DNA from: a virus
Lineage: Duplodnaviria; Heunggongvirae; Uroviricota; Caudoviricetes
Virus record (IMG/VR): IMGVR_UViG_3300046492_000163
Location: 1-64,000 of that record
Direction: 5' to 3' (one strand)
DNA length: 64,000 bases
Every line of letters starts with the position of its first letter. Position 1 is the stretch's first letter. A program made the position numbers and the translations under genes. The notes beneath the pieces were generated by a model. That model was not told where the DNA came from and ran no database searches. It worked only from the letters and a program-made list of their open reading frames with translations. Shown piece by piece: positions 5,295-46,200 of this stretch.

Positions 5295-8200
5295 ATGGAA
5301 CAAGTAGTTCTAGAAGGCCACAAGGGCGGTAGTAGCACACCACACCAGCCCGTAGAGGAAAGAAACAACCTGCTCTCAAAGTCCTACGCCAAAGTGCTTC
5401 TTGCAATTGGTGAAGGTGAGTTCGCAGGCACCCCAACCGCAGAGAACATCTACCTCGATGGCACCCCTCTTGTAAGTGCCACCGGTCTGCAAAACTTTGG
5501 TGGAGTTAAATGGGAATACCGCTCTGGTCGCTCTGATCAGTCGCACATTCCCGGCATGCCGGACATCTCTAACGAGTTTGCTATTGGCTTGGCTCTCACC
5601 AGCACAACCCCATATACCCGCCTGATTACCAACTCGCAACTTGATGCGATCCGTATCACCCTCGCATGGCCTGCTCTTTATCAACAAAAAGATAACGGCG
5701 ACATCGTGGGCTACAACATTGTCTATGCAATCGACATCTCCACTAACGGTGGAGCGTACGTGCAACAGGGGCAATGGGATACAGGCTCTGGTAAAACCAA
5801 CGTCGAGTATAACCGTACTCACCGCCTCACACTTCCGAAGCCAGGTACATCGTGGACTTTCCGTGTTCGTCGGATTACTCCGAATCAGAACAACGCTAAG
5901 TTCGCAGACATCATGCAGGTTAAATCCTACGCAGAAGTCATCGATGCCAAACTTCGTTACCCTAACACTGCCCTGCTCTATGTAGAGTTTGATGCTGAAG
6001 CCTTCGGTGGTTCCTCGATCCCCAAAGTTTCTATTCGAACTAGAGGCCGTTTGATCCAAGTTCCACAGAACTACAACCCAGACACCCGCGTTTACTCTGG
6101 CGTGTGGAACGGTACGTTCAAATGGGCATGGTCGGATAACCCTGCCTGGGTCTTCTATGACCTGGTGACAAACGACCGGTACGGCCTGGGTGCTCGCATC
6201 ACAGCAGATATGGTGGACAAGTGGACCCTGTACCAGGTCAGCCAGTATTGCGACGTGATGGTTCCAAACGGCAAGGGCGGTACAGAGCCACGTTACACTT
6301 GCAACGTCTATATCCAAGCCCGCAAAGAAGCATGGCAAGTTCTCCGCGACATCGTGGGGATCTTCAACGGGATGCTGCACTGGTCCGGTACGCAGATGGT
6401 TGCATCGGCAGATATGCCTGTTGCAATCAACACTGTTCGTACTTACAACCGCAGCAATGTAGTAGACGGTAAATTCATTTACGGCTCTACATCAGAGAAG
6501 ACCATTGCTACAACGGCCTTGGTGTCGTTCGATGATCCAGAGAACCACTTTGAAACCGCTGTAGAGGCCGTCAACGAACTTAGTCTTGTTCAACGATACA
6601 AGACCTGGAACCAAGCGGAACTCGCCGCTATCGGCTGCACAAGCCGTGGACAGGCACAGCGTAAAGGTAAGTACACGATGCTTACCAACTCGTTGAATCG
6701 AGTTGTGACATTCAAACTTGGCCTAGAAGGTTATCTGCCCGGTCCAGGTGATGTCATCGGTGTTGCTGACCAAGTGTTGGCAGGCTCGCAATTCTCTGGT
6801 CGTATCAGCACAGCCACTTTGAAAGTTGTTACTTGCGACCGTGTACCCAACGCTGTTGCTGGAGATATTCTTTACATTAACAAGGCGGATGGAACTCTAG
6901 GCGAAGGCCGGACCATCCAAAGTGTTGTTGGCAAGGTAGTTACTGTAACAACCAACTACTCTGAGATTCCAGCCGCTGAGTTGGGATGGTACGTCGAGAA
7001 GACGACCCTGAAGTCTCAGCTCTACCGTGTAACTAAAGTTGCATGGAGTGACAACGACGGTAAGTTTGAAGTTACCGGTGTTCAATACGAAGACAGCAAG
7101 TATGCAGCCGTTGATAGCGGTGCCCGTCTTGAGTCTCGGCCTATTACCACTGTTCCAGCGGGTGGGCAAGCTGCTCCAACTGGCCTGACTCTTACCAGCT
7201 TCAGCTACATCGAACAAACGATGGCAGTTACAACGCTATCGGTGAAGTGGAACCCTGCTGCCGGTGCCATGAAGTACGAAGGACAATGGCGTAAAGATGG
7301 TGGTGAATGGAACAACGTTGGACTGACAGCAAGCACTGGGTTTGACGTTAAAGGGATTTACTCTGGTGCCTACCAGGCGCGTGTACGGGCTATCAACGCT
7401 CTCGGAACTAAGTCGATTTGGCTTGAGTCTGCAAACACGCAACTAACCGGTAAAGTCGGCAACCCACCTTCCCTAGCGACTTTGACCACAGTATCGGAAA
7501 TCTTCGGTATCCGGATTAACTGGACGTTCTCACCTGGTGCGGAGGATGGTAATTACATCCAACTGCAACAAGCAACAACGGACACTGGAACAGGTGCTGC
7601 TGATCTTACAATGGTTGCCTACCCTGCTCAGACTTACCTCAAGTCGAACATGCTGGGTGGTGCTCAACTGTACTTCCGTGGTCGTCTGATCGACCGTTCG
7701 GGGAACCAGAGCCCATGGACCGCATGGACCTACGGTATTTCCGAGTACGGTACTGACAAGATCCTGGAAGCGATTGTTGGTGAAATCGAGCGTACCGAAC
7801 TTGGTCAGGAGTTGCTGAGCGAACTGGACTTCACTAAACAGGATATTAACTGGCTAGAAGCTGAAGTCACCGGCCTTGAGCAGCAAGTTCAGAACAACAT
7901 CTCCGACTTGAACGACACCATCTCGGATGTCAATATCGTTGTTGATGGGTTGCATGAGCAACTTGATTCTGCCTTCTCTACTCCGGAATACGATGCGGCT
8001 AAAACTTACCAGAAGGGTGAAATCACTCGTGTTGGGGAACGTCTATACCAAGCATTGATTAACGTGCCAGCTAACACCACTCCACCCAACGTAACTTATT
8101 GGAAGGATGTTGGACAAGTTGTTTCCACTGTTAGTGGGATGGCTGCACAAGTTCAGATCAACACAGCAGACGTTGCTACGCTGGACGGTGTAACTACCGC

Positions 8201-11200
8201 ACAGGCTGGATTAATCTCTGGGGTGAAATCGACCCTAGACAATATCGGTGGTAGCGGAACTAACTTGGTTCCGGCTGAGTATTCTGTATTCGGTGCTAAC
8301 AAGCCTGAAATCGTGTATGGCGGGACTATCGCAACTACAGTAGCGGATGCAACTGCCCTGTACGGTTATGCCCTCAAGGTTACAACCAACAGCACAAACG
8401 CCACCGCAACTATCTACACTACCCCGCTGGAAACCTACGCTGCATTCAACATGGCGTGCAAGCCCGGTAAGTATATCCTGTCTTACTACGGCAAGACAGA
8501 TACTGCTGGTCACACTATTGCTATGTTCCTCCGGGGCCGTAATAGTGCAGACGTTGCTGTAAGTTCGACAGGCGCTCCACAAGATGCACTGACAACAGGC
8601 TGGGTTCGTTACTCGCAAGTTGTTGACCTGACCGTCGCTTCGTTTGCCGATAAAGATAAGATGTCTATCGGTATCCAGGTTAACCGTTCTGGTATTACTG
8701 GACGTGTGTTCTACCTCGACCGCATCATGCTTGAACCGATGCTTGGCGAGAACACTGCACCATCGCCATTCAGCGTTGGTAACAGCTTCGGTAAAGTTGA
8801 CGCTCTTGCGACTGCAACAACTGCCTTGACTACAAGCGTGAATCAACATGGCCTGGATATCACTAGCCAAGGCCAAGCAATCACAGCCGTTGAAGCAAGC
8901 ATTGGAAGCATGGGTGGTGCGGGAACTAACTTTGTTCCAGATACCTATAGCTGGCTTGGAACCGCAACACTTCCACAGACGGCGCTGAGTACAGCAACTT
9001 CGCTCACATCTGTTCCTGTTACAGGATCGGTGTCTGGGTATGGTTACAGGTACGTGAAGCCTAACGTGGCCGTGCCATGGTTCATGCTCTGCCCGAGCAA
9101 CAACGCAGCAGGCTGGAACATCCCTCTAGTTCCAGGTAAGTACCTGATGTCGTTCTACGCGAGCACTGACGCCCAAGGCGTTACAGATGGCTTGCAAGTT
9201 CGTGCAGCAATGTGGGATGGCAGCAGCAAGAGCCCAACAGACTTCACCCTGACAGCGACACGTACACGCTACACCGCTGTAATCACGATTCCGAACAGTA
9301 ATACCTACGGGTTTACGCTGTTCTTCGTGGGTGGTGTCGCAGGCAGCATTGCGTGGATTGACTCCCCAATGTTGGAGAAGCAGGTAGGTAATAACACTGC
9401 CCCTTCCCCGTTCGTAGCTGGAAGTAGTGCAGCCACTGTAGTAGCAACCGCTGCCGCAGTTACAGCCCTGACTGCAACAGTATCCCAAACAGGGACTACC
9501 GTTGATTCTCACACGAACGCTATCACCACGATTAACGCTACGGTGAATAATCTTGGGGGCAGTGGAACGAACATGGTCCCTGCTGAGTTTAGTGCGTTCA
9601 CTTCCAAAGTGCCGACGTTCAGTAAAGCTGCTCTGCTAACTGTAACAACTGAGGCAGATCCAGCGGCGTACTCGGGATATCTCCTGAGAGCAACTAACAC
9701 CACGGCAACTGTTGGGCACCTCTACTTGGGTTCTACAGCAACCGATTACAACATGCGTATCGCTCCGGACAAGAAATACATTATTTCGTTCTGGGCTAAA
9801 GGCGATGTTGCTCACAACGTTGGCATCCGTATTCGTTATCCGAACTCGGCAGGTACAGCGGTTGAGATTGGCTTGGCGTCAGTTGCGATTACAACAACAC
9901 TGGCCCGTTATAGCGCTGTACTCACAATGCCTGCGGCTGTAGTGGATCGAGGCGTAATCGTCCTCTATACACAGAACACCGCTGCTATCGGTGATACCTG
10001 GTTCGATGGCTTCATGGTTGAAGCTGCAATTGGCCCAGCAGTGACCCCAAGTGCGTTTGTACCTGGTAACTCGATGAGCCAAGTTATCGGGCAAGCTTCG
10101 GCAACCTCGGCACTTGACGCTCGCGTGGTAGTCACCGAAGGGAACATGATCAGCACTGGTAATGCGATCACTACCATCAACGCTAACATTGGCAAGATCG
10201 GTGCTGCGGGTTCTAACCTGCTGAACGATGACTATAGCTGGCTTACTTCAACTACGTTGCCAGCCAACGTAAGTGGAACTAGCTTGGCACGAGTTGGTGT
10301 AGCTGTTCCTGGCTCAGCTTCAGGCTTCGGTATGAAGATGACTACAGCCAGCACTAGCACTGGTCAGTTCATCATGCTCTGCCCAACGAACAACGCGGCT
10401 GGCTGGAACGTGGACTTGGAAGCCGGACTTTACTTGGTGTCCATGTATGTCCAAGGTTCAGTTGCGGGAACAATGCGTATCTCGATGTACGACGGTACAC
10501 ACCGTTATTCACCGATTATTGCATTCACCACAACTCGCACTCGCCTGACATTTGTTTGTGGAGCTACTGCATTCACCCGTGCAGCAGTAACGATCTACCC
10601 GAACATGGCGGGTCTGGCAGCAGGAGCTGAAATTACTGTTGACAGCGTAATGGTTGAGAAGACAGCGAACGATGTATCTAGCCAAGTTCCTTCGCCATTC
10701 GTTGCGGGCAACTCTGCACGGGCACTGTCGGCACTTGCCACAGTAACCAACGCAATGGGCACCACAGTTAGTCAGCATGGAACGGACATCAACACTGCGG
10801 CCAACAATATTCTGTCGTTGCAAACCTCAGTTGGTGGACAGACTCAAGAGAACTATGTTCTCGACCCAACTTTCAACGTTGATAAAGCGGGCCTGTCTAA
10901 CTCTTCTCAGGTAACTATTGTTCCTCAGACTGATGTAACAGTTCCATTAGGTTCATCGGTTCCGCGTCTTGCTCGTTGGGATGTTCCAACCTCGACAGGG
11001 AACACTTACTTGGGCTGGCAATGTGTAACTCTGCAACGCTCTCCTGCTAGCACGATCACCGCGTCTATGGCGCCTGGTGAAGTGTACGAAGTCTCTTGCG
11101 ATGTCTACATGGATGTTGCAGGGGCTGCTAGACAGCACGGGATCTGGTTCCAGTTCTACGATGCCGCAGGCGCCTCGATCAGCCATAACTGGGTAGTAGG

Positions 11201-12581
11201 GACTATCTCTACTAAGAACAGCCAATGGGAAACACTGGCAGGAACTGTAACGGTTCCAGCAACTGTTGTCCGTGGTCGTCCTACGTTCCGGATGAGCCTG
11301 GGTGATGCAACTCCGCTGTGGATTACCAACATGCGTTGGACGAAGCAGACTGTTGCACAGGCCGGTAACGCAGCAGCAATCAGTTCACTGTCTGCAACTG
11401 TTGACAGCATGGATGGGATCGTTACTTCAACGGCAAAGGAAATTAGTAGTCTTACCGCCACTGCCAGACAGAACGATGGTACAGGTGATCTATCTGATGC
11501 TTTGAACTTGTGGCAGGCAACCGCGAAGATCCAGACTGAAGCAGTTGCCCGTGCTTCCGAAGATGGGGCAATGGCATCTAGGATTGATACGGTTAGTGCT
11601 CAGTTGAGTGACACCGCCGCGATGGTTCAGCAGGAGGCTATAGCAAGAGCCAACGGTGACTCAGCAGTTGCTAACTACACAACCTCTGTTCAGGCGAACC
11701 TGAATAACACCAACAGCAACTTGGCTACTACTAACGCGAACGTCACAACTGCGTCGAATGCTATTGCAACACTGAACGGTAAAGTAGCAGCATCGTACAG
11801 TATCAAGTTGGGGGTCAGCTATAACGGGTACTACTATGCCGCTGGCATGGGCATCGGGATTGAAAACACCCCGGCTGGTATGCAAAGCCAAGTGATCTTC
11901 CTGGCTGATCGTTTCGCGATCATGAATGGTGCAACTGCTAACTTCGTTGCTCCGTTCGTAGTGCAAGGTGGTCAGACGATCATCAACAACGCATTGATTG
12001 GTACAGCAAGCATTACTAACGCGATGATTGCCGATGCTCAAATCACCTACGCGAAGATTGCTGCGGCACAGATTGCTGATACCCATATCATCAACGGCCA
12101 CATCACCAACGCGAAGATTGGAGACGCAGCGGTTTCTACTGCGAAGATTCAAGACCTATCTGTGAACACGTTGAAGATTGCTGGTCGGGCTGTAACTGTC
12201 CCGATTGCTGTTTACTCTGAAGGTGTCGTGGGCTGCCCTGGTACTGTCAACGCACCTAACTGGACTGCTGTACAAGGTATAACGGTATCGAGTAGCGGTG
12301 ACGTGGGCTTGTTTAGCTTCACCTGCCAATTGAGTTTGAATAGTAATGCTGGCTACTGGCGTATCCGTCGTAGTGACGGTGCAATCCTGGCTTCGGGGCG
12401 TATGGCTGGAGATAACTTCAACTTCAACACCCCGGCTAACAGCTTCGCTATCAACATCCACCACTACTTTGCTGGCACGCTGGCCTTCTACCTCGACATC
12501 GCACCTTGGTACACCAATTTGGGAACCACCACGATGTATGTAGATAACCGTGCTATCACCTACACGAGTTTTATGCGATGA
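5295..12581 (+). CDS. J: central tail fibre / host specificity protein J-like, 2428 aa with long repeat-containing insertion
   Basis: N-terminal ~1100 aa collinear with lambda J (RYPNTAL, RGRL.QVP.NYNP.TR.YSG.W.GTFK, GGTEPR.TCN.Y, TYNRSNVV); four internal ~215-aa modules (GGSGTN.VPAE, D.YSWL..TTLP, MLCP.NNAAGWN); J-like C-terminal domain. Confidence 0.95.
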   Translation: MEQVVLEGHKGGSSTPHQPVEERNNLLSKSYAKVLLAIGEGEFAGTPTAENIYLDGTPLVSATGLQNFGGVKWEYRSGRSDQSHIPGMPDISNEFAIGLALTSTTPYTRLITNSQLDAIRITLAWPALYQQKDNGDIVGYNIVYAIDISTNGGAYVQQGQWDTGSGKTNVEYNRTHRLTLPKPGTSWTFRVRRITPNQNNAKFADIMQVKSYAEVIDAKLRYPNTALLYVEFDAEAFGGSSIPKVSIRTRGRLIQVPQNYNPDTRVYSGVWNGTFKWAWSDNPAWVFYDLVTNDRYGLGARITADMVDKWTLYQVSQYCDVMVPNGKGGTEPRYTCNVYIQARKEAWQVLRDIVGIFNGMLHWSGTQMVASADMPVAINTVRTYNRSNVVDGKFIYGSTSEKTIATTALVSFDDPENHFETAVEAVNELSLVQRYKTWNQAELAAIGCTSRGQAQRKGKYTMLTNSLNRVVTFKLGLEGYLPGPGDVIGVADQVLAGSQFSGRISTATLKVVTCDRVPNAVAGDILYINKADGTLGEGRTIQSVVGKVVTVTTNYSEIPAAELGWYVEKTTLKSQLYRVTKVAWSDNDGKFEVTGVQYEDSKYAAVDSGARLESRPITTVPAGGQAAPTGLTLTSFSYIEQTMAVTTLSVKWNPAAGAMKYEGQWRKDGGEWNNVGLTASTGFDVKGIYSGAYQARVRAINALGTKSIWLESANTQLTGKVGNPPSLATLTTVSEIFGIRINWTFSPGAEDGNYIQLQQATTDTGTGAADLTMVAYPAQTYLKSNMLGGAQLYFRGRLIDRSGNQSPWTAWTYGISEYGTDKILEAIVGEIERTELGQELLSELDFTKQDINWLEAEVTGLEQQVQNNISDLNDTISDVNIVVDGLHEQLDSAFSTPEYDAAKTYQKGEITRVGERLYQALINVPANTTPPNVTYWKDVGQVVSTVSGMAAQVQINTADVATLDGVTTAQAGLISGVKSTLDNIGGSGTNLVPAEYSVFGANKPEIVYGGTIATTVADATALYGYALKVTTNSTNATATIYTTPLETYAAFNMACKPGKYILSYYGKTDTAGHTIAMFLRGRNSADVAVSSTGAPQDALTTGWVRYSQVVDLTVASFADKDKMSIGIQVNRSGITGRVFYLDRIMLEPMLGENTAPSPFSVGNSFGKVDALATATTALTTSVNQHGLDITSQGQAITAVEASIGSMGGAGTNFVPDTYSWLGTATLPQTALSTATSLTSVPVTGSVSGYGYRYVKPNVAVPWFMLCPSNNAAGWNIPLVPGKYLMSFYASTDAQGVTDGLQVRAAMWDGSSKSPTDFTLTATRTRYTAVITIPNSNTYGFTLFFVGGVAGSIAWIDSPMLEKQVGNNTAPSPFVAGSSAATVVATAAAVTALTATVSQTGTTVDSHTNAITTINATVNNLGGSGTNMVPAEFSAFTSKVPTFSKAALLTVTTEADPAAYSGYLLRATNTTATVGHLYLGSTATDYNMRIAPDKKYIISFWAKGDVAHNVGIRIRYPNSAGTAVEIGLASVAITTTLARYSAVLTMPAAVVDRGVIVLYTQNTAAIGDTWFDGFMVEAAIGPAVTPSAFVPGNSMSQVIGQASATSALDARVVVTEGNMISTGNAITTINANIGKIGAAGSNLLNDDYSWLTSTTLPANVSGTSLARVGVAVPGSASGFGMKMTTASTSTGQFIMLCPTNNAAGWNVDLEAGLYLVSMYVQGSVAGTMRISMYDGTHRYSPIIAFTTTRTRLTFVCGATAFTRAAVTIYPNMAGLAAGAEITVDSVMVEKTANDVSSQVPSPFVAGNSARALSALATVTNAMGTTVSQHGTDINTAANNILSLQTSVGGQTQENYVLDPTFNVDKAGLSNSSQVTIVPQTDVTVPLGSSVPRLARWDVPTSTGNTYLGWQCVTLQRSPASTITASMAPGEVYEVSCDVYMDVAGAARQHGIWFQFYDAAGASISHNWVVGTISTKNSQWETLAGTVTVPATVVRGRPTFRMSLGDATPLWITNMRWTKQTVAQAGNAAAISSLSATVDSMDGIVTSTAKEISSLTATARQNDGTGDLSDALNLWQATAKIQTEAVARASEDGAMASRIDTVSAQLSDTAAMVQQEAIARANGDSAVANYTTSVQANLNNTNSNLATTNANVTTASNAIATLNGKVAASYSIKLGVSYNGYYYAAGMGIGIENTPAGMQSQVIFLADRFAIMNGATANFVAPFVVQGGQTIINNALIGTASITNAMIADAQITYAKIAAAQIADTHIINGHITNAKIGDAAVSTAKIQDLSVNTLKIAGRAVTVPIAVYSEGVVGCPGTVNAPNWTAVQGITVSSSGDVGLFSFTCQLSLNSNAGYWRIRRSDGAILASGRMAGDNFNFNTPANSFAINIHHYFAGTLAFYLDIAPWYTNLGTTTMYVDNRAITYTSFMR

Positions 12582-27475: not shown

Positions 27476-28165
27476 CTGGAACTAACCCGTTGAATCTACT
27501 GATAAAAAATTTCACTTCACACCTCGTCGTGACAAAGCCCACACGGACTAATCCTGTGGACGGTTTTTGGTCAAGATCGAGGGTGAATCAGTAGACAAGA
27601 CGGAGTGATCCCGCTAAAATCAAGTCTACTGAATCGAGAATTCCCGCCGCTTAAAACAGGATTCTTCCTCGATTCCGGGACCAGGGGGTTGGTAGCTCCG
27701 CTGATCCCTTCAAAGCCTCGCTTAGTGCGGGGCTTTGTCGTTGATGGGGCTGAGATTAGTCCCGTTCATCGACTAACGCAATACCCGATTGTAAAATCAA
27801 TTTCTCTTGACTTCCAGATTGAGCTGTGGCAGGCCGGATTGGCAACCCCAGCGAAGCGCCGGGTTGACGATGCGGCCTGCCACAGCCGACAAGCGAAGCG
27901 CGTCAGTGCTCCAGGCACCTCGATTCCCCCTGCCAAAACACCCCCTAAAAGAAAAGAAGCTTTTCCGAACCCCCGGTTTTATTACCTTTCGCCCGTTTTT
28001 TATAAACTATGCTCTTATGACCCGTAAGCTATTTCCTTACAGGTTGTAATTTAATGGGGTATAAAAGACAATGGCGCAATCGGGGTACGGAGGGGCTGTT
28101 TTTGACCCATCCTCTAGTACCTTGATTTAGAAGATTTTCCCGATCACCTGGAGGGGCACGCAACC

Positions 28166-28654
28166 ATGGCACGCGACAAGAAAACGGTTAAAAATCGTAC
28201 AGAGACGATCATCACCGATCACAAGACTGGGGAGGTTTTGAGCCAAGAATCGACCGTCACTTACAAAGTCCCACAAGAGCCGGACTTCGTGAAGGTGTAC
28301 ATCGAGTCCTTCACGGACATGGGACTGAGGGATCACCATGTGACCCTACTCTTCCAACTCGTTCGCAAAATGAACTACGAGAACGTGATTGCTCTCACAC
28401 CGGGCGCTCGGGTCAGGATCGGGGAAAAGCTGAAGATCCAGCAACAAACCTTCCGCAATTACCTGGCTGTTCTACTGGAGGCAGATATATTCCGGCGAAT
28501 AGGTCACGGAGAGTTCATGGTGAACCCGACCTACATTGCGAAGGCGAGGTTTGAGGAAAACGTAGCTCGACAGAAGATTTATTACAAAATCAAGCAAGTA
28601 AAGACTAAGAAAGGCCGAACTCCGAAGCCCAAGGAAGTTGCTCCAGATACTTGA
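28166..28654 (+). CDS. winged-HTH DNA-binding protein (candidate plasmid-type Rep or regulator)
   Basis: 162 aa; QQTFRNYLAVLLEADIFRRIGHGEFMVNP looks like recognition helix + wing; preceded by 690-bp repeat-rich non-coding DNA; convergent with par operon. Confidence 0.5.
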   Translation: MARDKKTVKNRTETIITDHKTGEVLSQESTVTYKVPQEPDFVKVYIESFTDMGLRDHHVTLLFQLVRKMNYENVIALTPGARVRIGEKLKIQQQTFRNYLAVLLEADIFRRIGHGEFMVNPTYIAKARFEENVARQKIYYKIKQVKTKKGRTPKPKEVAPDT

Positions 28655-28664
28655 GACAACAACT

Positions 28665-28690
28665 AAAGGGGCCGCAAGGCCCCTTTTTAG
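28665..28690. terminator. bidirectional intrinsic terminator between convergent genes
   Basis: AGGGGCC-gcaa-GGCCCCT + TTTTT. Confidence 0.6.
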
Positions 28691-28701
28691 TTCCATCATC
28701 C

Positions 28702-29238
28702 TTACTTGAGCTGCATCTTTCTCAATGTCTCAGCAGCCTTCTCGGGGGTGAGAAACCTATTGTGGGTCAACCACATGATCAACCCTTCCATTAGGATTGT
28801 CTGCCCAGTCAGGCCCCGAATTTCTTTCCGTGCTTCATCAACTACTTCGAACAGGTCGGGCGGAACTTGCACGCTCATTTGACTTGAGTTCTTTTTCTTC
28901 GTGCGATCATGTACAGGTGCGGCAAACATTACCGGCACCAGTTCTGGTTCAGGTTGAGCTGAAGTAACGAAAGTAATTGGTGGTTTCACGGGTTCTGGTT
29001 CTGGTTGACCTGGTTCTTCAGCAACTTTTGCTACAGGTGCGGCAGGCTGCGGTGCAACTTCCGGGGCATCCGCGATCTTGTGCAGCAATTGTTCAACCTC
29101 TTGCACTGGTGCGGGAGCTGGGGGCTCGACCGCTTCCGCTGGTGCCGCTGGCTGTAGTGGCACGGCTGTTGGATTGGGCGTTGCCTTCTCAGCCATTATC
29201 CCCGGTCTAAGGATGGATTCGCGTCGAGTGCGTGTCAT
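28702..29238 (-). CDS. ParG-like centromere-binding protein (RHH C-terminal domain, Pro/Ala-rich disordered N-terminus)
   Basis: C-terminus SVQVPPDLFEVVDEARKEI..GQTILMEGLIMWL fits a beta-strand-helix-helix (RHH) layout; downstream of parA; alternative start at 29196. Confidence 0.55.
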   Translation of the reverse strand: MTRTRRESILRPGIMAEKATPNPTAVPLQPAAPAEAVEPPAPAPVQEVEQLLHKIADAPEVAPQPAAPVAKVAEEPGQPEPEPVKPPITFVTSAQPEPELVPVMFAAPVHDRTKKKNSSQMSVQVPPDLFEVVDEARKEIRGLTGQTILMEGLIMWLTHNRFLTPEKAAETLRKMQLK

Positions 29239-29289
29239 GTTCGATTACCTGCGTACATGCGTGATTGAGTGCCCGGTTACTCGCATAAC

Positions 29290-29420
29290 CGGGTGGGTAC
29301 TCGGCTACCTACCAGAGTACCACACCGCCTACCTATTTGAATGGGTAACTGGGTAAGTACCCAACTGAGTAAATGGGTAGATACCCAGAGGTATATACAA
29401 GTGGGTAACTGGGTACTTAC
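29290..29420. repeat. centromere-like palindrome cluster (TGGGTA-NN-TACCCA units) downstream of parA
   Basis: TGGGTAAGTACCCA, TGGGTAGATACCCA, TGGGTACTTACCCA; the 31-bp block at 29370..29400 recurs at 31021..31051 with 1 mismatch. Confidence 0.5.
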
Positions 29421-29465
29421 CCACCTACCCACTCCAATACCCAAGCAGGGCAGTAAGGAATTAGG

Positions 29466-30224
29466 TCACTGGCTACTCACCAGCTTGAGTCCACGGGTGC
29501 CTTCTTTGACACCCAGCGACTTGCCTGCAACCTTCGGCCCGACCTTCGCCCGTTTCTTGACTTTTTCCTTGGGTTTCCGCAACTCAGCAGGTACTGGGTT
29601 CGGTTCTTTGATGCCAACTTCTTGCAGGATGAACTCAACCAGGTTGTCGATTTCCTCCACGCCTTGGTGGTTGGGATCGTATTCGTCCAAGGATTCGCCC
29701 CAGCCCATGCAAGTCTTAAAGGCAGTTGCTCGATGGACAATGCCCGCAACTTTCCCCACGCGGGAAAGCTCCATGACGGTTTCGGTTGTGATCCGTTCGC
29801 GTTTATCAACGATGTTCATCAGGAACACGGAGCGAGCGTGGTGTTCGGTCAGCGTGCCGAAGGTGTCGGCTGTACCTTCCAAATCCAATGGGCTTGGCTG
29901 GCACGGCACAACTACCAGATCGGCAATTTCATAAAGCTTGGACAGTTCTTCGTGCTTCCAGCCGGGGGTGTCGATCACGACACAATCCACGCCCAACTCC
30001 CGCAATTCATCGAGCCTTGGGCGAAGTTGTTCGAACGTAACTTTCAGCAGTTCGGGGAACTGAGATTCACGGCGTTCCCACCAGCGTTTGATGCCGCCTC
30101 GGTGGTGGTCAACGTCAATTAGAACGGTGTAGTAGCCACGGTTATCCAGGTTGACGCCAACCTGGGCGGTGATGGTGGACTTGCCTACACCCCCCTTTTC
30201 GTTGGCAACAGCGAAAATTTTCAT
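29466..30224 (-). CDS. parA: ParA/Soj-family partition ATPase (type Ib size)
   Basis: MKIFAVANEKGGVGKST deviant Walker A; GAGGAA RBS before ATG at 30224; ORF-track N-terminal extension to 30305 rejected. Confidence 0.9.
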   Translation of the reverse strand: MKIFAVANEKGGVGKSTITAQVGVNLDNRGYYTVLIDVDHHRGGIKRWWERRESQFPELLKVTFEQLRPRLDELRELGVDCVVIDTPGWKHEELSKLYEIADLVVVPCQPSPLDLEGTADTFGTLTEHHARSVFLMNIVDKRERITTETVMELSRVGKVAGIVHRATAFKTCMGWGESLDEYDPNHQGVEEIDNLVEFILQEVGIKEPNPVPAELRKPKEKVKKRAKVGPKVAGKSLGVKEGTRGLKLVSSQ

Positions 30225-30299
30225 TGGGTGTTCCTCTATATAGGTGCTCACCTGGGTGAGCGGTTCCTTGCTTAAGTGATTGCTTGCGCGAATCCCCGC

Positions 30300-31060
30300 A
30301 TCCATGCGTGATTGGGCGAACGCTTACCTGTGTAAACGAACGGGTATGTCCCTAAGTCCGCAGTTCCCTGAGTAACTGAGTAAAGACGGAAGCGTGCAAT
30401 TACGCATTCACTTACGTCCGCAACCGGGCGAGTAATGGCTCACGGGCGTGGTTCCCCACTTCTTCCCTTGGGCGTCCACCTGTGTGAGCACGCACTCGGT
30501 TGCTCAATTACCTAAGTCAGTAGCCAGTTCCCCACGTACCTCAATGAGGAAGTCACCACCTACCTAGGCAAACACCTGGGCAAGTACATACCTGCTTGGG
30601 TGTTTACTCAGACGCATGCGTCCTTACCTGGGGATTTAACTACTCGGGTGGGTAATTGTCAACTTACTCGCACAATTAATGTAATACGCGCCTACCCACG
30701 TACCCAACCAAGCGAGTCCCTAGGGAGGTAGGTAGGTGCATGGTTGGTTGAGTAGTTGAGTGTGGAGGTAGGTACTCAGACAACCACCTAGTTACCCAAA
30801 TAGGTAAGTGAATGGCTACTGGCGTACCTATGGAATTACCTGAATACGCAAGGGATTACGCACCCACACACGTACCCGGTTAGGTAAGCACACAAGTGAT
30901 TACGTGGTTCCTTGCGTGCTGGAGTATGCGGTGACGTACTGGTGTACTGGAGTACCCAAATGAGTAATTACCCAAGTGAGTAGCTGGGTAGGTGGGTAAG
31001 TACCCAAAAGGGTAGATGGGTAAATGGGTAGATACCCAGTGGTATATACAACCTGTTTGA
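30300..31060. repeat. repeat-rich non-coding region upstream of parA (degenerate GGTAAG/TACCCA and ATTAC motifs); candidate centromere
   Basis: no credible ORF; >8 ATTAC(C/G) copies and many GGTA/TACC half-palindromes; perfect TGGGTA-NN-TACCCA units at 31000..31040. Confidence 0.45.
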
Positions 31061-31449
31061 TTTCCCGCTTGGCAGGGTCTGCCACCAGGTGTTGAGGCAG
31101 CAGCCGCAGCCCGAAGTTCTGTGAGCCTCTGTGAGGCCTTATAGGAGGTCGGCAACCCATTAGTAGCCTCGCCCTGGCAACGTCGCCTGGCTGGGCTATA
31201 GTGAAGGCGGGTAAGGTGTTGCCGGACGAATTTTCCCCATAACCCGGCATTCACGCAGATCAGGACGGGGTTGCCTCTGGCGTGCTGAAAGATGCGCGTA
31301 CAGCGAGTACGGACAGACACGGCCTTACCTGAAGCCCTGCCATGACCTGGTGGGGCTTTTTATTGTCCTACAATAATCCACTGTACATCTACACAGTGGT
31401 GGCTATACTGAGTACGTCAACCTCGGGCAGACCGTCAATCTTCCCATTT

Positions 31450-31480
31450 AGCCGCCCCTCACCAGGGCGGCTTTCTTTTG
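31450..31480 (+). terminator. intrinsic terminator
   Basis: GCCGCCC-ctcacca-GGGCGGC + TTTCTTTT. Confidence 0.55.
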
Positions 31481-31488
31481 TCCAATGC

Positions 31489-31580
31489 CGCTACAGGGGG
31501 CCTGGCTCCCAGAATGCCCGTACAGGGGGCTAGCCCCCAGTTTCCTCATAGGGGGGTATGCACTACACGGGGGTGGGTTG
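31489..31580. repeat. ACAGGGGG-core repeat cluster (4 copies, irregular spacing) incl. perfect palindrome GGGGGCTAGCCCCC
   Basis: tacagggggc x2, cataggggggt, acacgggggtg. Confidence 0.4.
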
Positions 31581-31688
31581 CGGTGGTGCCGCCTGTCAGG
31601 TAGGATCGCCGTGCGTGTCCGAGACTGTAGCTTCGACAGGGGTGTACCTGCTCCATCCCGTGGGTACATCAGAACAGAAGCATTGATC

Positions 31689-31720
31689 AGCCGCTTAGCC
31701 CACCTAAGCGGCTTTTCTTT
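31689..31720 (+). terminator. intrinsic terminator
   Basis: AGCCGCTTAG-cccacc-TAAGCGGCT + TTTCTTT. Confidence 0.55.
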
Positions 31721-31857
31721 GCCTGGTGGAAAGGCATCCTGGTGTTGACCTGGTGTTGACCTGGTGTTGGTCCGACCGATGTGGTAACGTGCCTGGGCTT
31801 TCCTTGTGTTGTGTTGTAATGGCAGGGGTGGGGAACTCGTAAACCCCCACCCATTGA

Positions 31858-31890
31858 AAAGGCCGTCCTCTTGGACGGCCTTTTCTTTGT
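31858..31890 (+). terminator. intrinsic terminator
   Basis: GGCCGTCC-tctt-GGACGGCC + TTTTCTTTG. Confidence 0.55.
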
Positions 31891-31923
31891 CCGGTAGAAA
31901 GTCCTGGTCCGACCTGGTTAAAC

Positions 31924-32349: not shown

Positions 32350-32733
32350 TTATGCAGCGGCAGACACTTGCTTCCAGCTCAGAACTTCGTCTTTGCCGTA
32401 CTTGCCGATCCACTCTTGAATCTTCTTCTTCAAGATGTTCGCCGCTCGCACGACTTCCCCAGTGTGTGGGTTTTTGTACTCAGTAAAGACTGTGTTCGGT
32501 CCTGCCTTCTTCGGCTTCTTCTCTTTGACCTCTACCACTGGCGGTACATAGTTCGGATCAAGGATCGTGTTCACATCTACCAAGGACATCCCGTATTTGG
32601 CTAGGAGTTCTCGCTGCTCAGCTTCGAAGGCCTGGAGCTTCTGTAGCTGGGGGTTATTCTCAAGCTCTTGAAGGCGGCGCTGTACGGCTTCGAACTCTGC
32701 TCTTGCTTCGTGTAGCTGCTTTACCAATGACAT
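32350..32733 (-). CDS. MvaT/MvaU-family H-NS-like nucleoid-associated protein (xenogeneic silencer homologue)
   Basis: 127 aa; MSL...coiled coil...ILDP...Lys-rich linker...EYKNPHTGEVV...LSW matches P. aeruginosa MvaT (LLDPDA, QYKNPHTGEVIETKGG...ESW), recalled from memory. Confidence 0.85.
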   Translation of the reverse strand: MSLVKQLHEARAEFEAVQRRLQELENNPQLQKLQAFEAEQRELLAKYGMSLVDVNTILDPNYVPPVVEVKEKKPKKAGPNTVFTEYKNPHTGEVVRAANILKKKIQEWIGKYGKDEVLSWKQVSAAA

Positions 32734-45264: not shown

Positions 45265-46200
45265 ATGATCGATTTTCAGGCTGGTGTAGATTCTTTCTGC
45301 GAATACCTGCGACTTGAACGTCAAGCGTCTGTTCACACTATCCAAGCCCGTCGTCGTGACCTGGCTAAAGTGATTGCCTACTGCAAGGCCTGCCATATCC
45401 CTGACTGGTCCTCCTTTGAGGCTGCGAACATGCGGGGCTTGGTCGCAAAGATGAACGAGAATGGTCAAGAGGCAAACAGCGTCAAGCGTCTGATGTCTTC
45501 CGTCCGTAGATTGTTCCGCCACCTCAAGTTGCAGAACGTGATCGCTGATGGTCATAACCCGCTTCATAAAGTGGACACACCAAAGGGTCACAAACGGCTT
45601 CCTCGGCACCTGCTCTCCTATGAGTCTGGCGACATGCTCGATGCTGAAGTGGAAGACACTTTCATTGCCCGTCGTGACCATGCCATTGTTGAACTTTTCT
45701 ACTCTTCTGGCCTTCGCCTCACTGAACTAGTGAACCTCGACATGGAGCACGTAGACTTCAACGACAAGTTGGTAACGGTAGTTGGCAAGGGCAATAAGAC
45801 CCGGATCGTTCCAGTGGGTCGCAAGGCTCTGGAGTCGCTTCAGGAATGGTTCAAGCACCGCGACCTGGTGGAAGCAAAGGGCAAGGCGATCTTCATCAGC
45901 CAGCAGGGCCAACGCCTCACCGGGCGGGCTGTCCGCATGCGGGTAGAAGCCATGGGCAAGAGCAAGCTGGGCCGTCACCTGTACCCGCACATGCTCCGTC
46001 ATTCCTTTGCCACAGATATGTTGTCTTCGTGCCACGACTTGCGTGTTGTACAGGAGCTGCTCGGTCACGCAGACATCAAGACCACGCAGATTTACACGCA
46101 CTTGGATTACGGCCATCTTGCAGGGGTGTACAACAATGCTCACCCACGGGCTAAACGCATTACAACTGATTCCGATATTGGAAAGAGCCATGAACTATAA
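45265..46200 (+). CDS. XerC/XerD-like tyrosine recombinase
   Basis: 311 aa; C-terminus HMLRHSFATDMLSSCHDLRVVQELLGHADIKTTQIYTHLDYGHLAGVYNNAHPRAKR near-identical in pattern to XerC; GGGAG RBS. Confidence 0.85.
   Translation: MIDFQAGVDSFCEYLRLERQASVHTIQARRRDLAKVIAYCKACHIPDWSSFEAANMRGLVAKMNENGQEANSVKRLMSSVRRLFRHLKLQNVIADGHNPLHKVDTPKGHKRLPRHLLSYESGDMLDAEVEDTFIARRDHAIVELFYSSGLRLTELVNLDMEHVDFNDKLVTVVGKGNKTRIVPVGRKALESLQEWFKHRDLVEAKGKAIFISQQGQRLTGRAVRMRVEAMGKSKLGRHLYPHMLRHSFATDMLSSCHDLRVVQELLGHADIKTTQIYTHLDYGHLAGVYNNAHPRAKRITTDSDIGKSHEL

What the first reader, a model, noticed from the sequence alone, without database searches (positions are those of the whole stretch)
28702..31060. Type Ib partition cassette flanked on both sides by TGGGTA-NN-TACCCA palindromes and a 31-bp direct repeat
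ParA (deviant Walker A KGGVGKST) is followed by a small protein with an RHH-like C-terminus. Identical 14-bp palindromes (TGGGTAAGTACCCA / TGGGTAGATACCCA) lie both downstream (29290-29420) and upstream (30950-31060) of the operon. A 31-bp block (TAAATGGGTAGATACCCAG(A/T)GGTATATACAA) is repeated 1.65 kb apart with one mismatch. Two centromere clusters bracketing the par genes is unusual.
Basis: seen in the sequence. Interest (0 to 1): 0.6.

Follow-up and report, generated by a model that had tools for sequence, protein, structure and literature searches.

The report
Giant phase-locked ParG-type centromere lattice
A roughly 100-kb uncultivated phage carries a ParF/ParG-like plasmid-partition module in which all the non-coding DNA around the ATPase gene (832 bp plus 228 bp) is one unbroken four-base-periodic array of protein-binding boxes, several times longer and far more regular than any comparable centromere I could find described.

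Summary
Five TGGGTANNTACCCA palindromes and a 31-bp repeat lie at the stated places, with 0 expected by chance.

The geometry was misread. One cluster is upstream of parA. The other is in the 227-bp spacer between parA and the second gene, not downstream of the operon.

The module is ParF/ParG-like (type Ib):
- ParA's best solved relative is ParF.
- The 178-aa partner has a predicted ribbon-helix-helix C-terminal domain, distantly ParG-like, behind a ~100-aa disordered linker.

The palindromes are the best-preserved units of something larger. Window 30225-31056 (208 tetramers) and 29230-29457 (57 tetramers) are phase-locked (Y-R-N-N)n arrays, found nowhere else in the 64 kb.

Eight related genomes (~100-kb contigs where assembled; ParA down to 39% identity) have the same two arrays, 0.23-1.1 kb long:
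- The box sequence changes with the partner protein's β-strand (TACCCA, TACTCA, CAATCG).
- The Y-R skeleton and a TTGTATATACA palindrome stay constant.
- The lattice outside the cores resembles each genome's own box type in 8 of 9.

Best reading: two nucleation cores plus a templated lattice along which the RHH protein polymerises, covering the parA promoter and leader. Binding is inferred, not shown. I rate it a new variant of a known kind.

The parts
29466..30224 (-). parA: 252-aa ParF-like Walker ATPase (KGGVGKST) with a conserved Lys-rich C-terminal tail of about 45 aa ending LKLVSSQ
   Evidence: ORF and translation. Pfam CbiA/MipZ/AAA_31 and NCBIfam ParA_partition 1.8e-33, below the equivalog cut-off. 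phrog_164. Best PDB hit is ParF 4DZZ at 1.6e-8. The start at MKIF is fixed by alignment with relatives and by a GAGGAA ribosome-binding site.
28702..29238 (-). Centromere-binding protein gene (178 aa). It has a conserved Arg/Lys-rich N-terminal peptide, a Pro/Ala/Glu-rich disordered linker of about 100 aa, a C-terminal ribbon-helix-helix domain (SSQMSVQV strand) and one extra helix.
30225..31056 (.). Upstream lattice: 208 consecutive Y-R-N-N tetramers in one phase, running from the parA start codon to the distal core
   Evidence: Mod-4 composition. Fourier power. Sliding YR scan. Conserved in 8 relatives at 416-1084 bp.
30953..31038 (.). Distal strong core: 11 consecutive hexamer boxes (TGGGTA/TACCCA/TGAGTA) at 8-bp pitch in mixed orientation, including palindromes at 30993 and 31025
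31042..31049 (.). GTATATAC palindrome (part of TTGTATATACC) marking the outer boundary of the upstream array. It is invariant in all 9 genomes.
31021..31051 (+). 31-bp direct repeat, copy 2 (last box pair plus the palindrome)
29230..29457 (.). Intergenic lattice: 57 in-phase Y-R-N-N tetramers filling the parA-CBP spacer
   Evidence: Relatives have 228-464 bp.
29342..29431 (.). Intergenic strong core: 6 + 4 boxes at 8-bp pitch on either side of the GTATATAC palindrome (29391-29398), with palindromes at 29350, 29374 and 29410
29370..29400 (+). 31-bp direct repeat, copy 1
30634..30662 (-). Conserved sigma-70-like promoter TTGACA-N17-TTAAAT inside the lattice, 438 nt upstream of the parA ATG. A TACCCA box lies in its spacer.
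   Evidence: Alignment A2. A regex finds it in 6 of 7 loci, 159-611 nt from the ATG. The generic promoter scan missed it because of its -10 rule. Function is inferred.
30438..30489 (-). Strongly conserved inverted repeat in the parA leader (GCTCAC…GGTGG…CCAC…GTGAGC). It could be an RNA hairpin or a pair of inverted boxes.
   Evidence: RNAalifold on 6 genomes shows invariant stems plus covarying pairs 229:246 and 212:263.
30246..30261 (-). GCTCAC-loop-GTGAGC inverted repeat immediately 5' of the parA ribosome-binding site. The arms are invariant. The loop is 4 nt in W, L001, L005 and L010, and 8 nt longer in L002 and L006.

Best explanation
This is the partition module of an uncultivated ~100-kb tailed phage that most likely persists as a plasmid prophage. 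It is a ParF/ParG-type (type Ib) system: a ParF-like ATPase plus a centromere-binding protein (CBP).

The CBP has three parts:
- an RHH domain, whose dimer reads 6-bp boxes (TGGGTA/TACCCA and variants) set at 8-bp pitch in either orientation, as ParG reads ACTC boxes in parH/OF;
- a disordered linker of about 100 aa;
- a basic N-terminal peptide, the presumed ParA-ATPase activator, by analogy with the ParG tail.

Two cores of 10-11 good boxes act as high-affinity nucleation sites. Each abuts a TTGTATATAC palindrome. One lies at the far end of the parA upstream region, the other in the parA-CBP spacer.

From these cores the CBP is proposed to polymerise cooperatively along a lattice of weak boxes. 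Only the pyrimidine-purine step every 4 bp is strictly kept in this lattice, possibly as a deformability or indirect-readout requirement. The predicted result is a continuous nucleoprotein filament of roughly 100 + 28 dimer positions. It would serve as a very large segrosome. It would also cover the parA promoter, the leader and the CBP gene's upstream region, so it would autoregulate both genes.

Shown: the sequence anatomy, its conservation, the fold prediction and the box/β-strand co-variation.
Inferred: binding, spreading, ATPase activation, regulation and the plasmid lifestyle.
For: 1. Identity of the proteins.
- ParA family hits, with ParF as best PDB match.

2. Site architecture like parH/OF.
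- All 19 box pairs at 8-bp pitch in the 64 kb lie in the two arrays.
- A TP228-type parH contains TGAGTAGATACTCC, the same 6-2-6 form. Its description is in PMC3130281.

3. The lattice is real and under selection.
- Period-4 power is 32 against 0.7.
- YR occupancy is a uniform 73-88% along 832 bp.
- At skeleton positions transitions outnumber transversions about 2:1. At positions 3 and 4 the ratio is about 1:2.
- 40 of 51 alignment gaps are multiples of 4.

4. Conservation. The same two arrays and the same synteny occur in 8 further genomes, with ParA down to 39% identity.

5. Co-variation.
- Core consensus is TACCCA in the six genomes with strand SSQMS(V/C)QV.
- It is TACTCA/TACGCA with QIQLSLKL and CAATCG with KMSNVSVPL. 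It is shifted with DSQMSFTV.
- The non-core lattice scores best with its own box type in 8 of 9 genomes.
- The lattice's YR-step composition follows its own core.

6. Published precedent for function.
- ParG coats parH cooperatively and may tether further dimers to neighbouring mutated boxes (PMC3130281).
- For the RHH ParB of pSM19035, contiguity of at least 4 repeats without a gap is required for ParA activation (PMC9499535).
Against: - No binding data exist.
- The Fourier signal is at period 4 and 2, not 8. Strong boxes keep a single 8-bp register only locally. A one-dimer-per-8-bp filament over the whole lattice is therefore not demonstrated.
- The promoter-proximal half carries blocks far more conserved than a weak-site lattice needs. 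These include inverted repeats with some covariation, so part of the constraint may act on RNA.
- The RHH ParB of pSM19035 is reported not to spread (PMC9499535).
- The CBP does not reach any Pfam threshold.
- ParA is below the NCBIfam equivalog cut-off.
- The invariant TTGTATATACA element does not co-vary with the CBP and is unexplained.
Confidence: 0.55

Rival explanations
1. Only the two strong cores are functional CBP sites: an ordinary parH-like centromere and an OF-like operator. The surrounding (YRNN)n DNA is the decaying by-product of repeated expansion and contraction of 8-bp units by slippage or unequal crossing-over. It has no function of its own.
For: - The cores have 10-11 boxes, the size of parH (12) and OF (8) (PMC3130281).
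- Array length varies 416-1084 bp between relatives, by 4n-bp indels that in-register recombination would generate anyway.
- The promoter-distal half is barely alignable between relatives.
Against: - Neutral decay should erode the skeleton with distance from the cores and with age. Instead YR occupancy is a uniform 73-88% across 832 bp.
- The skeleton is present in all 9 genomes despite ParA divergence to 39% identity and a complete change of box sequence.
- Substitutions at skeleton positions are biased fourfold towards class-preserving transitions, relative to positions 3 and 4.
- The phase is never lost over as many as 271 tetramers.
Confidence: 0.2
2. The lattice is read by a different protein. 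One candidate is the MvaT-like (H-NS-type) protein encoded just upstream in every relative. Another is a host nucleoid protein that prefers flexible YR steps. The RHH protein would bind only the cores.
For: - An MvaT_DBD gene is syntenic with the arrays in all 9 genomes.
- The invariant TTGTATATACA palindrome and the invariant skeleton do not change when the CBP β-strand and boxes change. This is what a second, conserved reader would predict.
Against: - The non-core lattice resembles each genome's own box type in 8 of 9 genomes, and its TA/TG/CA/CG usage follows its own core. This ties the lattice to the CBP specificity.
- The arrays do not look AT-rich, which is the usual MvaT/H-NS preference (general knowledge). 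Skeleton steps are only 20-34% TA in most genomes and 9% in L016. GC content was not computed.
Confidence: 0.1
3. The promoter-proximal 160-610 bp is primarily a structured 5' leader RNA of parA (translational or stability control). Its conserved inverted repeats are RNA hairpins. The DNA periodicity there is secondary.
For: - A conserved TTGACA-N17-TTAAAT lies 159-611 nt upstream of the ATG.
- RNAalifold finds 62 pairs, 17 of them with compensatory changes in at least one genome. These include a three-part hairpin with invariant stems and a GCTCAC/GTGAGC hairpin whose loop varies while the arms stay fixed.
- Shared motifs (GCCCAATCACGCATG, CCGCGTAAGCGG) occur in the leaders of both genes.
Against: - It cannot explain the skeleton upstream of the promoter or its strand symmetry.
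- Arrays built from boxes in both orientations give inverted repeats for free.
- Only 6 sequences were available, and the covariation term is small (-2.3 kcal/mol).
- There is no Rfam match.
- This reading is compatible with, rather than exclusive of, the lattice model.
Confidence: 0.1
4. The repeats are iterons of the replication origin, bound by the convergent Rep protein rather than by the partition protein.
For: A RepL-like gene (28166-28654) lies next to the module. Long arrays of short repeats are typical of iteron origins (general knowledge).
Against: - The Rep gene is RepL-type in W and L001 but HTH_36-type in L002, L005, L006, L010 and L015, while the TACCCA boxes stay the same.
- Boxes track the RHH β-strand instead.
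- An 8-bp pitch with mixed orientation is the RHH/ParG pattern (PMC3130281).
Confidence: 0.05

Closest known systems
ParF-ParG-parH/OF of plasmid TP228 (type Ib partition)
   Same: - ParF is the best solved relative of this ParA.
- The CBP is an RHH protein with a detectable profile match to ParG, including the TAPV segment before the strand.
- The sites are short boxes at 8-bp pitch in direct and inverted orientation upstream of the ATPase gene, doubling as operator. TP228-type parH even contains TGAGTAGATACTCC, the same 6-2-6 palindrome form (PMC3130281).
   Different: - TP228 has 20 boxes (about 160 bp). Here there are 208 + 57 tetramer positions (832 + 228 bp), and up to 1084 bp in a relative.
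- TP228's array is not phase-locked at 4 bp. It shows two phases at about 50/50, and no 64-bp stretch in parH-OF reaches 12 of 16.
- A second array fills a 227-391-bp spacer between the two genes, where TP228-type has 51 nt.
- The CBP is 131-188 aa in the phage loci, with a disordered linker of about 100 aa in this window's protein. ParG is 76 aa.
- ParA has an extra basic tail of about 45 aa.
- The host replicon is a tailed phage.
- Pfam ParG is not matched.
δ-ω-parS of pSM19035 (RHH ParB on contiguous heptads)
   Same: - An RHH CBP binds contiguous short repeats in either orientation and wraps straight DNA as a left-handed spiral.
- The repeat arrays sit upstream of several promoters, so they serve as centromere and operator at once.
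- Contiguity without gaps is functionally essential (PMC9499535).
   Different: - The pitch is 7 bp, in arrays of about seven repeats, against an 8-bp pitch on a 4-bp skeleton over hundreds of bp here.
- ω is reported not to spread (PMC9499535).
- There is no sequence similarity.
par2 of pB171 (parC1-parA-parB-parC2)
   Same: A type Ib locus with two separate clusters of CBP-binding repeats (PMC4270457).
   Different: There the clusters flank the whole parAB operon. Here the second cluster is between parA and the CBP gene. The repeat structure of parC1 and parC2 was not compared here.
MetJ on tandem 8-bp met boxes
   Same: - RHH dimers sit at 8-bp pitch on tandem boxes. In (AGACGTCT)n the pyrimidine-purine steps fall every 4 bp, and the uncontacted T-A junction step contributes by indirect readout (general knowledge, not checked in a paper here).
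- MetJ-DNA was the top Foldseek hit, although not significant (E 0.69).
   Different: MetJ operators have 2-5 boxes and regulate transcription only. MetJ needs a co-repressor. No homology is claimed.

Membership tests
Type Ib (small ParA + RHH CBP) partition systems | Walker-type ParA with deviant Walker A (KGGxGK[ST]) and no N-terminal DNA-binding domain | tested here: met
   KGGVGKST lies at residues 10-17 of a 252-aa protein. The profile matches start at residue 1. ParF is the best PDB hit.
Type Ib (small ParA + RHH CBP) partition systems | Centromere-binding protein with a ribbon-helix-helix DNA-binding domain | tested here: met
Type Ib (small ParA + RHH CBP) partition systems | CBP gene immediately downstream of parA, co-transcribed and autoregulated from one promoter | tested here: inconclusive
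   The order and strand are right. However, the genes are 227 bp apart (280-391 bp in relatives) with an array in between. A TTGAC[TC]-N17 promoter-like site appears in that spacer in only 3 of 9 genomes.
Type Ib (small ParA + RHH CBP) partition systems | CBP binds the repeats, stimulates the ParA ATPase, and the cassette stabilises a replicon | not testable with these tools
   Only indirect evidence: co-variation between box and β-strand.
ParG family (Pfam PF09274) / ParF equivalog (NCBIfam NF041546) | Score above the curated family thresholds | tested here: not met
   The CBP has no Pfam hit, even at E 10 on the isolated domain. ParA scores 115.8 bits against a cut-off of 180 for NF041546. 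The proteins are distant relatives, not members by those definitions.
parH/OF-type centromere (TP228) | Arrays of short boxes at regular 8-bp pitch, in direct and inverted orientation, upstream of the ATPase gene | tested here: met
   There are 11 and 6+4 consecutive boxes at 8-bp pitch in mixed orientation.
parH/OF-type centromere (TP228) | 4-bp boxes separated by 4-bp AT-rich spacers; about 20 boxes in total | tested here: not met
   The boxes here are hexamers with 2-nt spacers of any composition. The array is 5-7 times longer and strictly 4-bp phased, which the TP228-type site is not.
pB171 par2-type dual centromere | Two repeat clusters flanking the complete parAB operon | tested here: not met
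   The second cluster (29230-29457) lies between parA and the CBP gene. Only a terminator-like hairpin and the convergent rep gene follow the CBP gene.
Phage-plasmid | Phage structural genes together with plasmid replication and partition genes on one replicon, maintained extrachromosomally | tested here: inconclusive
   The same window carries tape-measure and tail genes, RNR, a RepL-like Rep, ParA and a XerC/D-like recombinase. Five of the relatives' contigs are 100-108 kb, one is 87 kb, and two are fragments of 11 and 17 kb. No bacterial flanks are visible in the fetched loci, which cover at most 12.6 kb each. The extrachromosomal state is not testable here.

The most novel reading that the evidence does not exclude
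The arrays are a sequence-templated spreading track. A pyrimidine-purine step every 4 bp makes any stretch of the lattice competent for cooperative RHH polymerisation from two nucleation cores. An RHH-type partition system would then build a kilobase-scale partition complex, the functional counterpart of CTP-driven ParB spreading, using DNA-encoded phase instead of a sliding clamp. The skeleton (indirect readout) and the boxes (direct readout) would be separable layers that evolve independently. That is what the nine genomes show: the boxes change with the β-strand while the skeleton is invariant.
Probability: 0.4. Interest if true: 0.8.

Novelty: new variant of a known kind. Interest (0 to 1): 0.62.

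Why it matters
RHH-type (type Ib) partition complexes are thought of as short, non-spreading arrays of about 7-20 repeats. How they move large replicons is less clear than for HTH-ParB/CTP systems. Here a family of ~100-kb phages keeps 0.65-1.5 kb of strictly phased lattice around parA.

The family offers a natural experiment. The base-specific boxes change with the protein's recognition strand, while a 4-bp YR skeleton is held constant. That separates direct from indirect readout. It makes several questions directly testable with simple footprinting and stability assays:
- Can RHH centromere proteins polymerise over kilobases?
- Does phase or contiguity set ParA activation?
- Does a ~100-aa disordered tether change how ParA is engaged?

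It also adds a previously undescribed maintenance module to the catalogue of phage-plasmids.

Tried and rejected
- DNA similarity of 28100-31400 to INPHARED phages and PLSDB plasmids: no match.
- The search for related loci with ParA or the ParA alignment in viral, genome and metagenome contigs: nothing. Relatives were reached instead through protein searches and exact-sequence look-ups.
- CBP against Pfam, PHROGs and NCBIfam: no hits.
- PDB profile search with the full-length 4-sequence alignment: nothing.
- An 8-bp Fourier peak was expected and is absent. The period is 4, with its harmonic at 2. Autocorrelation beyond the tetramer skeleton is weak.
- The generic promoter scan found nothing on the minus strand. 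The conserved TTGACA-N17-TTAAAT emerged only from the alignment.
- The TTGTATATACA palindrome was considered as a LexA box, an IHF site or an extended -10 element. All three were rejected on sequence grounds (my inspection, no tool test).
- More distant small ParAs (about 35% identity; L013, L014) and the TP228-type locus (L012) have no (YRNN)n arrays.
- Rfam: no family at gathering threshold. Only sub-threshold hits at E <= 1.
- My first impression that all indels are multiples of 4 was corrected to 40 of 51. Several exceptions lie in the flanks, near the ribosome-binding site or in coding sequence.
Full report
**1. What is in the sequence**

Both genes of the finding are on the minus strand.
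- parA runs 30224->29466. It encodes 252 aa starting at MKIF and carries NEKGGVGKST.
- A 178-aa ORF runs 29238->28702.

TGGGTANNTACCCA occurs five times in the 64-kb window, at 29350, 29374, 29410, 30993 and 31025. No shuffle produces it. The 31-bp block is at 29370-29400 and 31021-31051 with one A/T difference.

The first cluster, however, lies in the 227-bp spacer between parA and the second gene, not downstream of the operon. The two clusters bracket parA alone.

**2. The larger feature**

I laid the non-coding DNA out in 8-nt register. The palindromes turned out to be the best-kept units of a much longer array. Over 30225-31056 (832 bp):
- Every fourth position is a pyrimidine (T 129, C 60, G 17, A 2 of 208).
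- The next position is a purine (A 112, G 76, C 18, T 2).
- Fourier power is 32 at period 4 and 36 at period 2. Mononucleotide shuffles tested at period 8 give a mean of about 0.7 and a maximum of about 2.5, and neighbouring non-coding DNA (31061-31900) gives 0.5 at period 4. There is no period-8 or period-3 signal.

The 228 bp from 29230 to 29457 shows the same pattern. In the rest of the window no 64-bp stretch in any phase exceeds 11 of 16 in-phase YR steps, whereas the arrays reach 13-16. Occupancy is a uniform 19-23 of 26 tetramers along the whole 832 bp.

All 19 pairs of good boxes (TGGGTA/TACCCA/TGAGTA/TACTCA/TAGGTA/TACCTA) at 8-bp pitch in the window lie inside these two arrays. They form two strong cores:
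- 11 consecutive boxes at 30953-31038;
- 6 + 4 boxes at 29342-29431.

Each core abuts the palindrome GTATATAC, at 31042 and 29391, the only two copies in the window.

**3. The proteins**

ParA:
- It matches ParA-type families (Pfam CbiA/MipZ/AAA_31; NCBIfam ParA_partition 1.8e-33 but below the equivalog cut-off; phrog_164).
- Its best solved relatives are ParF of TP228 (4DZZ, 1.6e-8) and 5U1G.
- It carries a conserved Lys-rich C-terminal tail of about 45 aa that ParF lacks.

The 178-aa protein:
- It has no hit in Pfam, PHROGs or NCBIfam.
- It is rare: 4 relatives among 5.8 billion clustered proteins and 14 representatives among 1.84 billion.
- Alignment shows a conserved basic N-terminal peptide, a variable Pro/Ala/Glu-rich linker, and a conserved C-terminal segment, APVHxR…SSQMSVQV…AR…GLTGQ.IL.E….WL.HN.F.
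- A profile of that segment finds RHH proteins as best PDB sequences (E73; a CopG/Arc/MetJ-family antitoxin; E 0.05-0.08).
- The profile aligns with ParG over 52 columns (hhalign E 5.6e-5, probability 66%).
- The full-length model is disordered for residues 1-120.

I conclude that this is a ParF/ParG-like pair, but too distant to meet the curated family thresholds.

**4. Context**

The window is a tailed phage. It carries a tape-measure protein, tail proteins, ribonucleotide reductase, a ThyX-like gene, a XerC/D-like recombinase, a RepL-like gene convergent on the CBP gene, and an MvaT_DBD gene. It has no nucleotide match to known phages or plasmids. The nearest protein matches in cultured phages are at or below 40% identity. 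A plasmid-prophage lifestyle is inferred from this gene content.

**5. Relatives**

Exact-sequence look-ups gave eight further genomes. Six come from 87-108-kb contigs and two from 11- and 17-kb fragments. All have the same order: MvaT-like gene, long non-coding stretch, parA, spacer of 280-391 bp, CBP gene, convergent Rep gene, then a Band_7-type gene. ParA identity runs from 76% down to 39% among the six reached through ParA or CBP searches. It was not measured for L015 and L016.

Every one has both arrays in a single phase:
- upstream, 416-1084 bp (up to 271 tetramers);
- intergenic, 228-464 bp.

Evidence that the skeleton is under selection:
- Between relatives, transitions outnumber transversions about 2:1 at the two skeleton positions. 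The ratio is about 1:2, roughly the unbiased expectation, at positions 3 and 4.
- 40 of 51 distinct alignment gaps are multiples of 4.

More distant small ParAs (about 35% identity) in ordinary plasmid contexts have no such array. Nor does a TP228-type parFG locus. The TP228-type parH-OF has ACTCA boxes at 8-bp pitch and even TGAGTAGATACTCC, but it switches between two phases and never reaches 12 of 16.

**6. Who reads the boxes**

| Genomes | CBP β-strand | Core consensus box |
|---|---|---|
| W, L001, L002, L005, L006, L008 | SSQMS(V/C)QV | TACCCA |
| L015 | QIQLSLKL | TACTCA/TACGCA (no TACCCA) |
| L016 | KMSNVSVPL | CAATCG/CGTTCA |
| L010 | DSQMSFTV | shifted, with CATCCA/TGGAG variants |

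The Rep gene, by contrast, is RepL-type in W and L001 and HTH_36-type in L002, L005, L006, L010 and L015, with no change of box. This argues against iterons.

The lattice outside the cores follows each genome's own specificity:
- It scores best with the box matrix of its own type in 8 of 9 genomes. For example, the L016 lattice scores 3.8 bits with its own matrix and -0.4 with W's.
- Its usage of TA, TG, CA and CG steps follows its own core. TA is 30% in W and 9% in L016.

The YR skeleton and the TTGTATA(T/G)ACA palindrome do not change in any genome.

**7. Other layers**

- A conserved TTGACA-N17-TTAAAT lies inside the upstream array (window 30634-30662, minus strand), 438 nt from the parA ATG. 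It is found in 6 of 7 loci, at 159-611 nt.
- The stretch between it and the ATG holds blocks conserved even at 39% ParA identity. These include inverted repeats with a few compensatory changes. I cannot decide whether these act in RNA or as inverted box pairs.
- A promoter-like site in the parA-CBP spacer is seen in only three distant relatives.

**8. Mechanism proposed**

By analogy with ParG on parH/OF, I propose that CBP dimers nucleate on the two cores and polymerise along the lattice. In that system one dimer binds per box, coating is cooperative, box orientation is tolerated, and dimers may be tethered onto neighbouring mutated boxes (PMC3130281). In pSM19035 gap-free contiguity of RHH-ParB repeats is required to activate ParA (PMC9499535).

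The YR step every 4 bp would supply the deformability needed for close packing. This is the arrangement also seen in tandem MetJ boxes (general knowledge). The filament would present many long tethers ending in the basic N-terminal peptide to nucleoid-bound ParA, and it would repress parA, and probably the CBP gene, by covering the promoter and leader.

Shown: anatomy, conservation, fold prediction and co-variation.
Inferred: binding, spreading, ATPase activation, regulation and lifestyle.

Weak points:
- There is no period-8 signal over the whole lattice.
- The palindrome is unexplained.
- The leader may carry an RNA layer.
- ω of pSM19035 is reported not to spread.

**9. Verdict**

The type Ib/RHH interpretation is supported. 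The claim that two clusters are unusual is not, given TP228 parH+OF, pB171 parC1/parC2 (PMC4270457) and the six parS sites of pSM19035.

The unusual feature is the kilobase-scale, 4-bp phase-locked lattice, conserved across a phage family, with co-evolving boxes and an invariant skeleton. I rate it a new variant of a known kind, interest 0.62.

Noticed in passing
window 31060-31920: This is a gene-free stretch next to the upstream array. It has three plus-strand terminator-like hairpins (31331-31359, 31450-31472, 31689-31713) with repeated flanks, and a perfect 13-bp hairpin at 31856-31885. There is a sub-threshold Rfam RNAI-like match at 31815-31887 (29 bits against a gathering score of 47, E 0.011). 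These may be small regulatory or copy-control RNAs.
   Followed up: partly
window 32350-32733 (minus strand); L001 2693-3076, L002 1779-2360, L005 3429-3836, L006 1307-1846, L008 3043-3420, L010 2195-2671, L015 403-852, L016 1038-1451: A gene with an MvaT-type (H-NS-like xenogeneic silencer) DNA-binding domain sits upstream of the arrays in all nine genomes. It is a candidate second reader of the lattice, or a phage-encoded silencer.
   Followed up: partly
window 28166-28654 (+) and the equivalent genes in the loci: The replication-initiator-like gene convergent on the CBP gene is RepL-type in the window and L001, but HTH_36-type in L002, L005, L006, L010 and L015. The partition module is otherwise conserved. 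This indicates replicon-module exchange within one phage family.
   Followed up: partly
window 29466-29600 (C-terminal 45 codons of parA): ParA ends in a conserved Lys-rich tail (PVPAELRKPKE.VK.K…G.KV.GK…LKLVSSQ) that is absent from the 206-aa ParF. Its function is unknown. It might provide extra non-specific DNA contact or a partner-binding site.
   Followed up: no
window 30303-30318 and 29256-29273 (read on the minus strand): The motif G(C/T)(C/A)C(C/T)CAATCACGCATG occurs in the parA leader and again about 20 nt upstream of the CBP start codon. In relatives a CCGCGTAAGCGG hairpin is likewise present in both leaders. This suggests a shared regulatory element for the two genes.
   Followed up: partly
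window 29391-29398 and 31042-31049; equivalents in all loci: A TTGTATA(T/G)ACA palindrome, an alternating Y-R run of 10 bp, abuts every strong core. It marks the outer edge of every upstream array. It stays constant even where the boxes have changed completely (L016). What reads it is unknown.
   Followed up: partly
window 45265-46200 (+): A XerC/D-type tyrosine recombinase (Phage_integrase plus the SAM-like N-terminal domain). It could be a dimer-resolution enzyme for a plasmid prophage or an integrase, which bears on the lifestyle question.
   Followed up: no
window 28912-28924 / 29032-29044 and 28936-29012: Direct repeats lie inside the CBP coding sequence: an exact 13-mer 120 bp apart and a 26-mer at 85% identity 51 bp apart. 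They correspond to the Pro/Ala-rich linker. The linker probably grows and shrinks by repeat slippage, which fits its variable length among relatives.
   Followed up: no
window 5295-12581 (+): A single 2428-aa ORF lies downstream of the tape-measure gene, presumably a giant tail or fibre protein. It was not examined.
   Followed up: no
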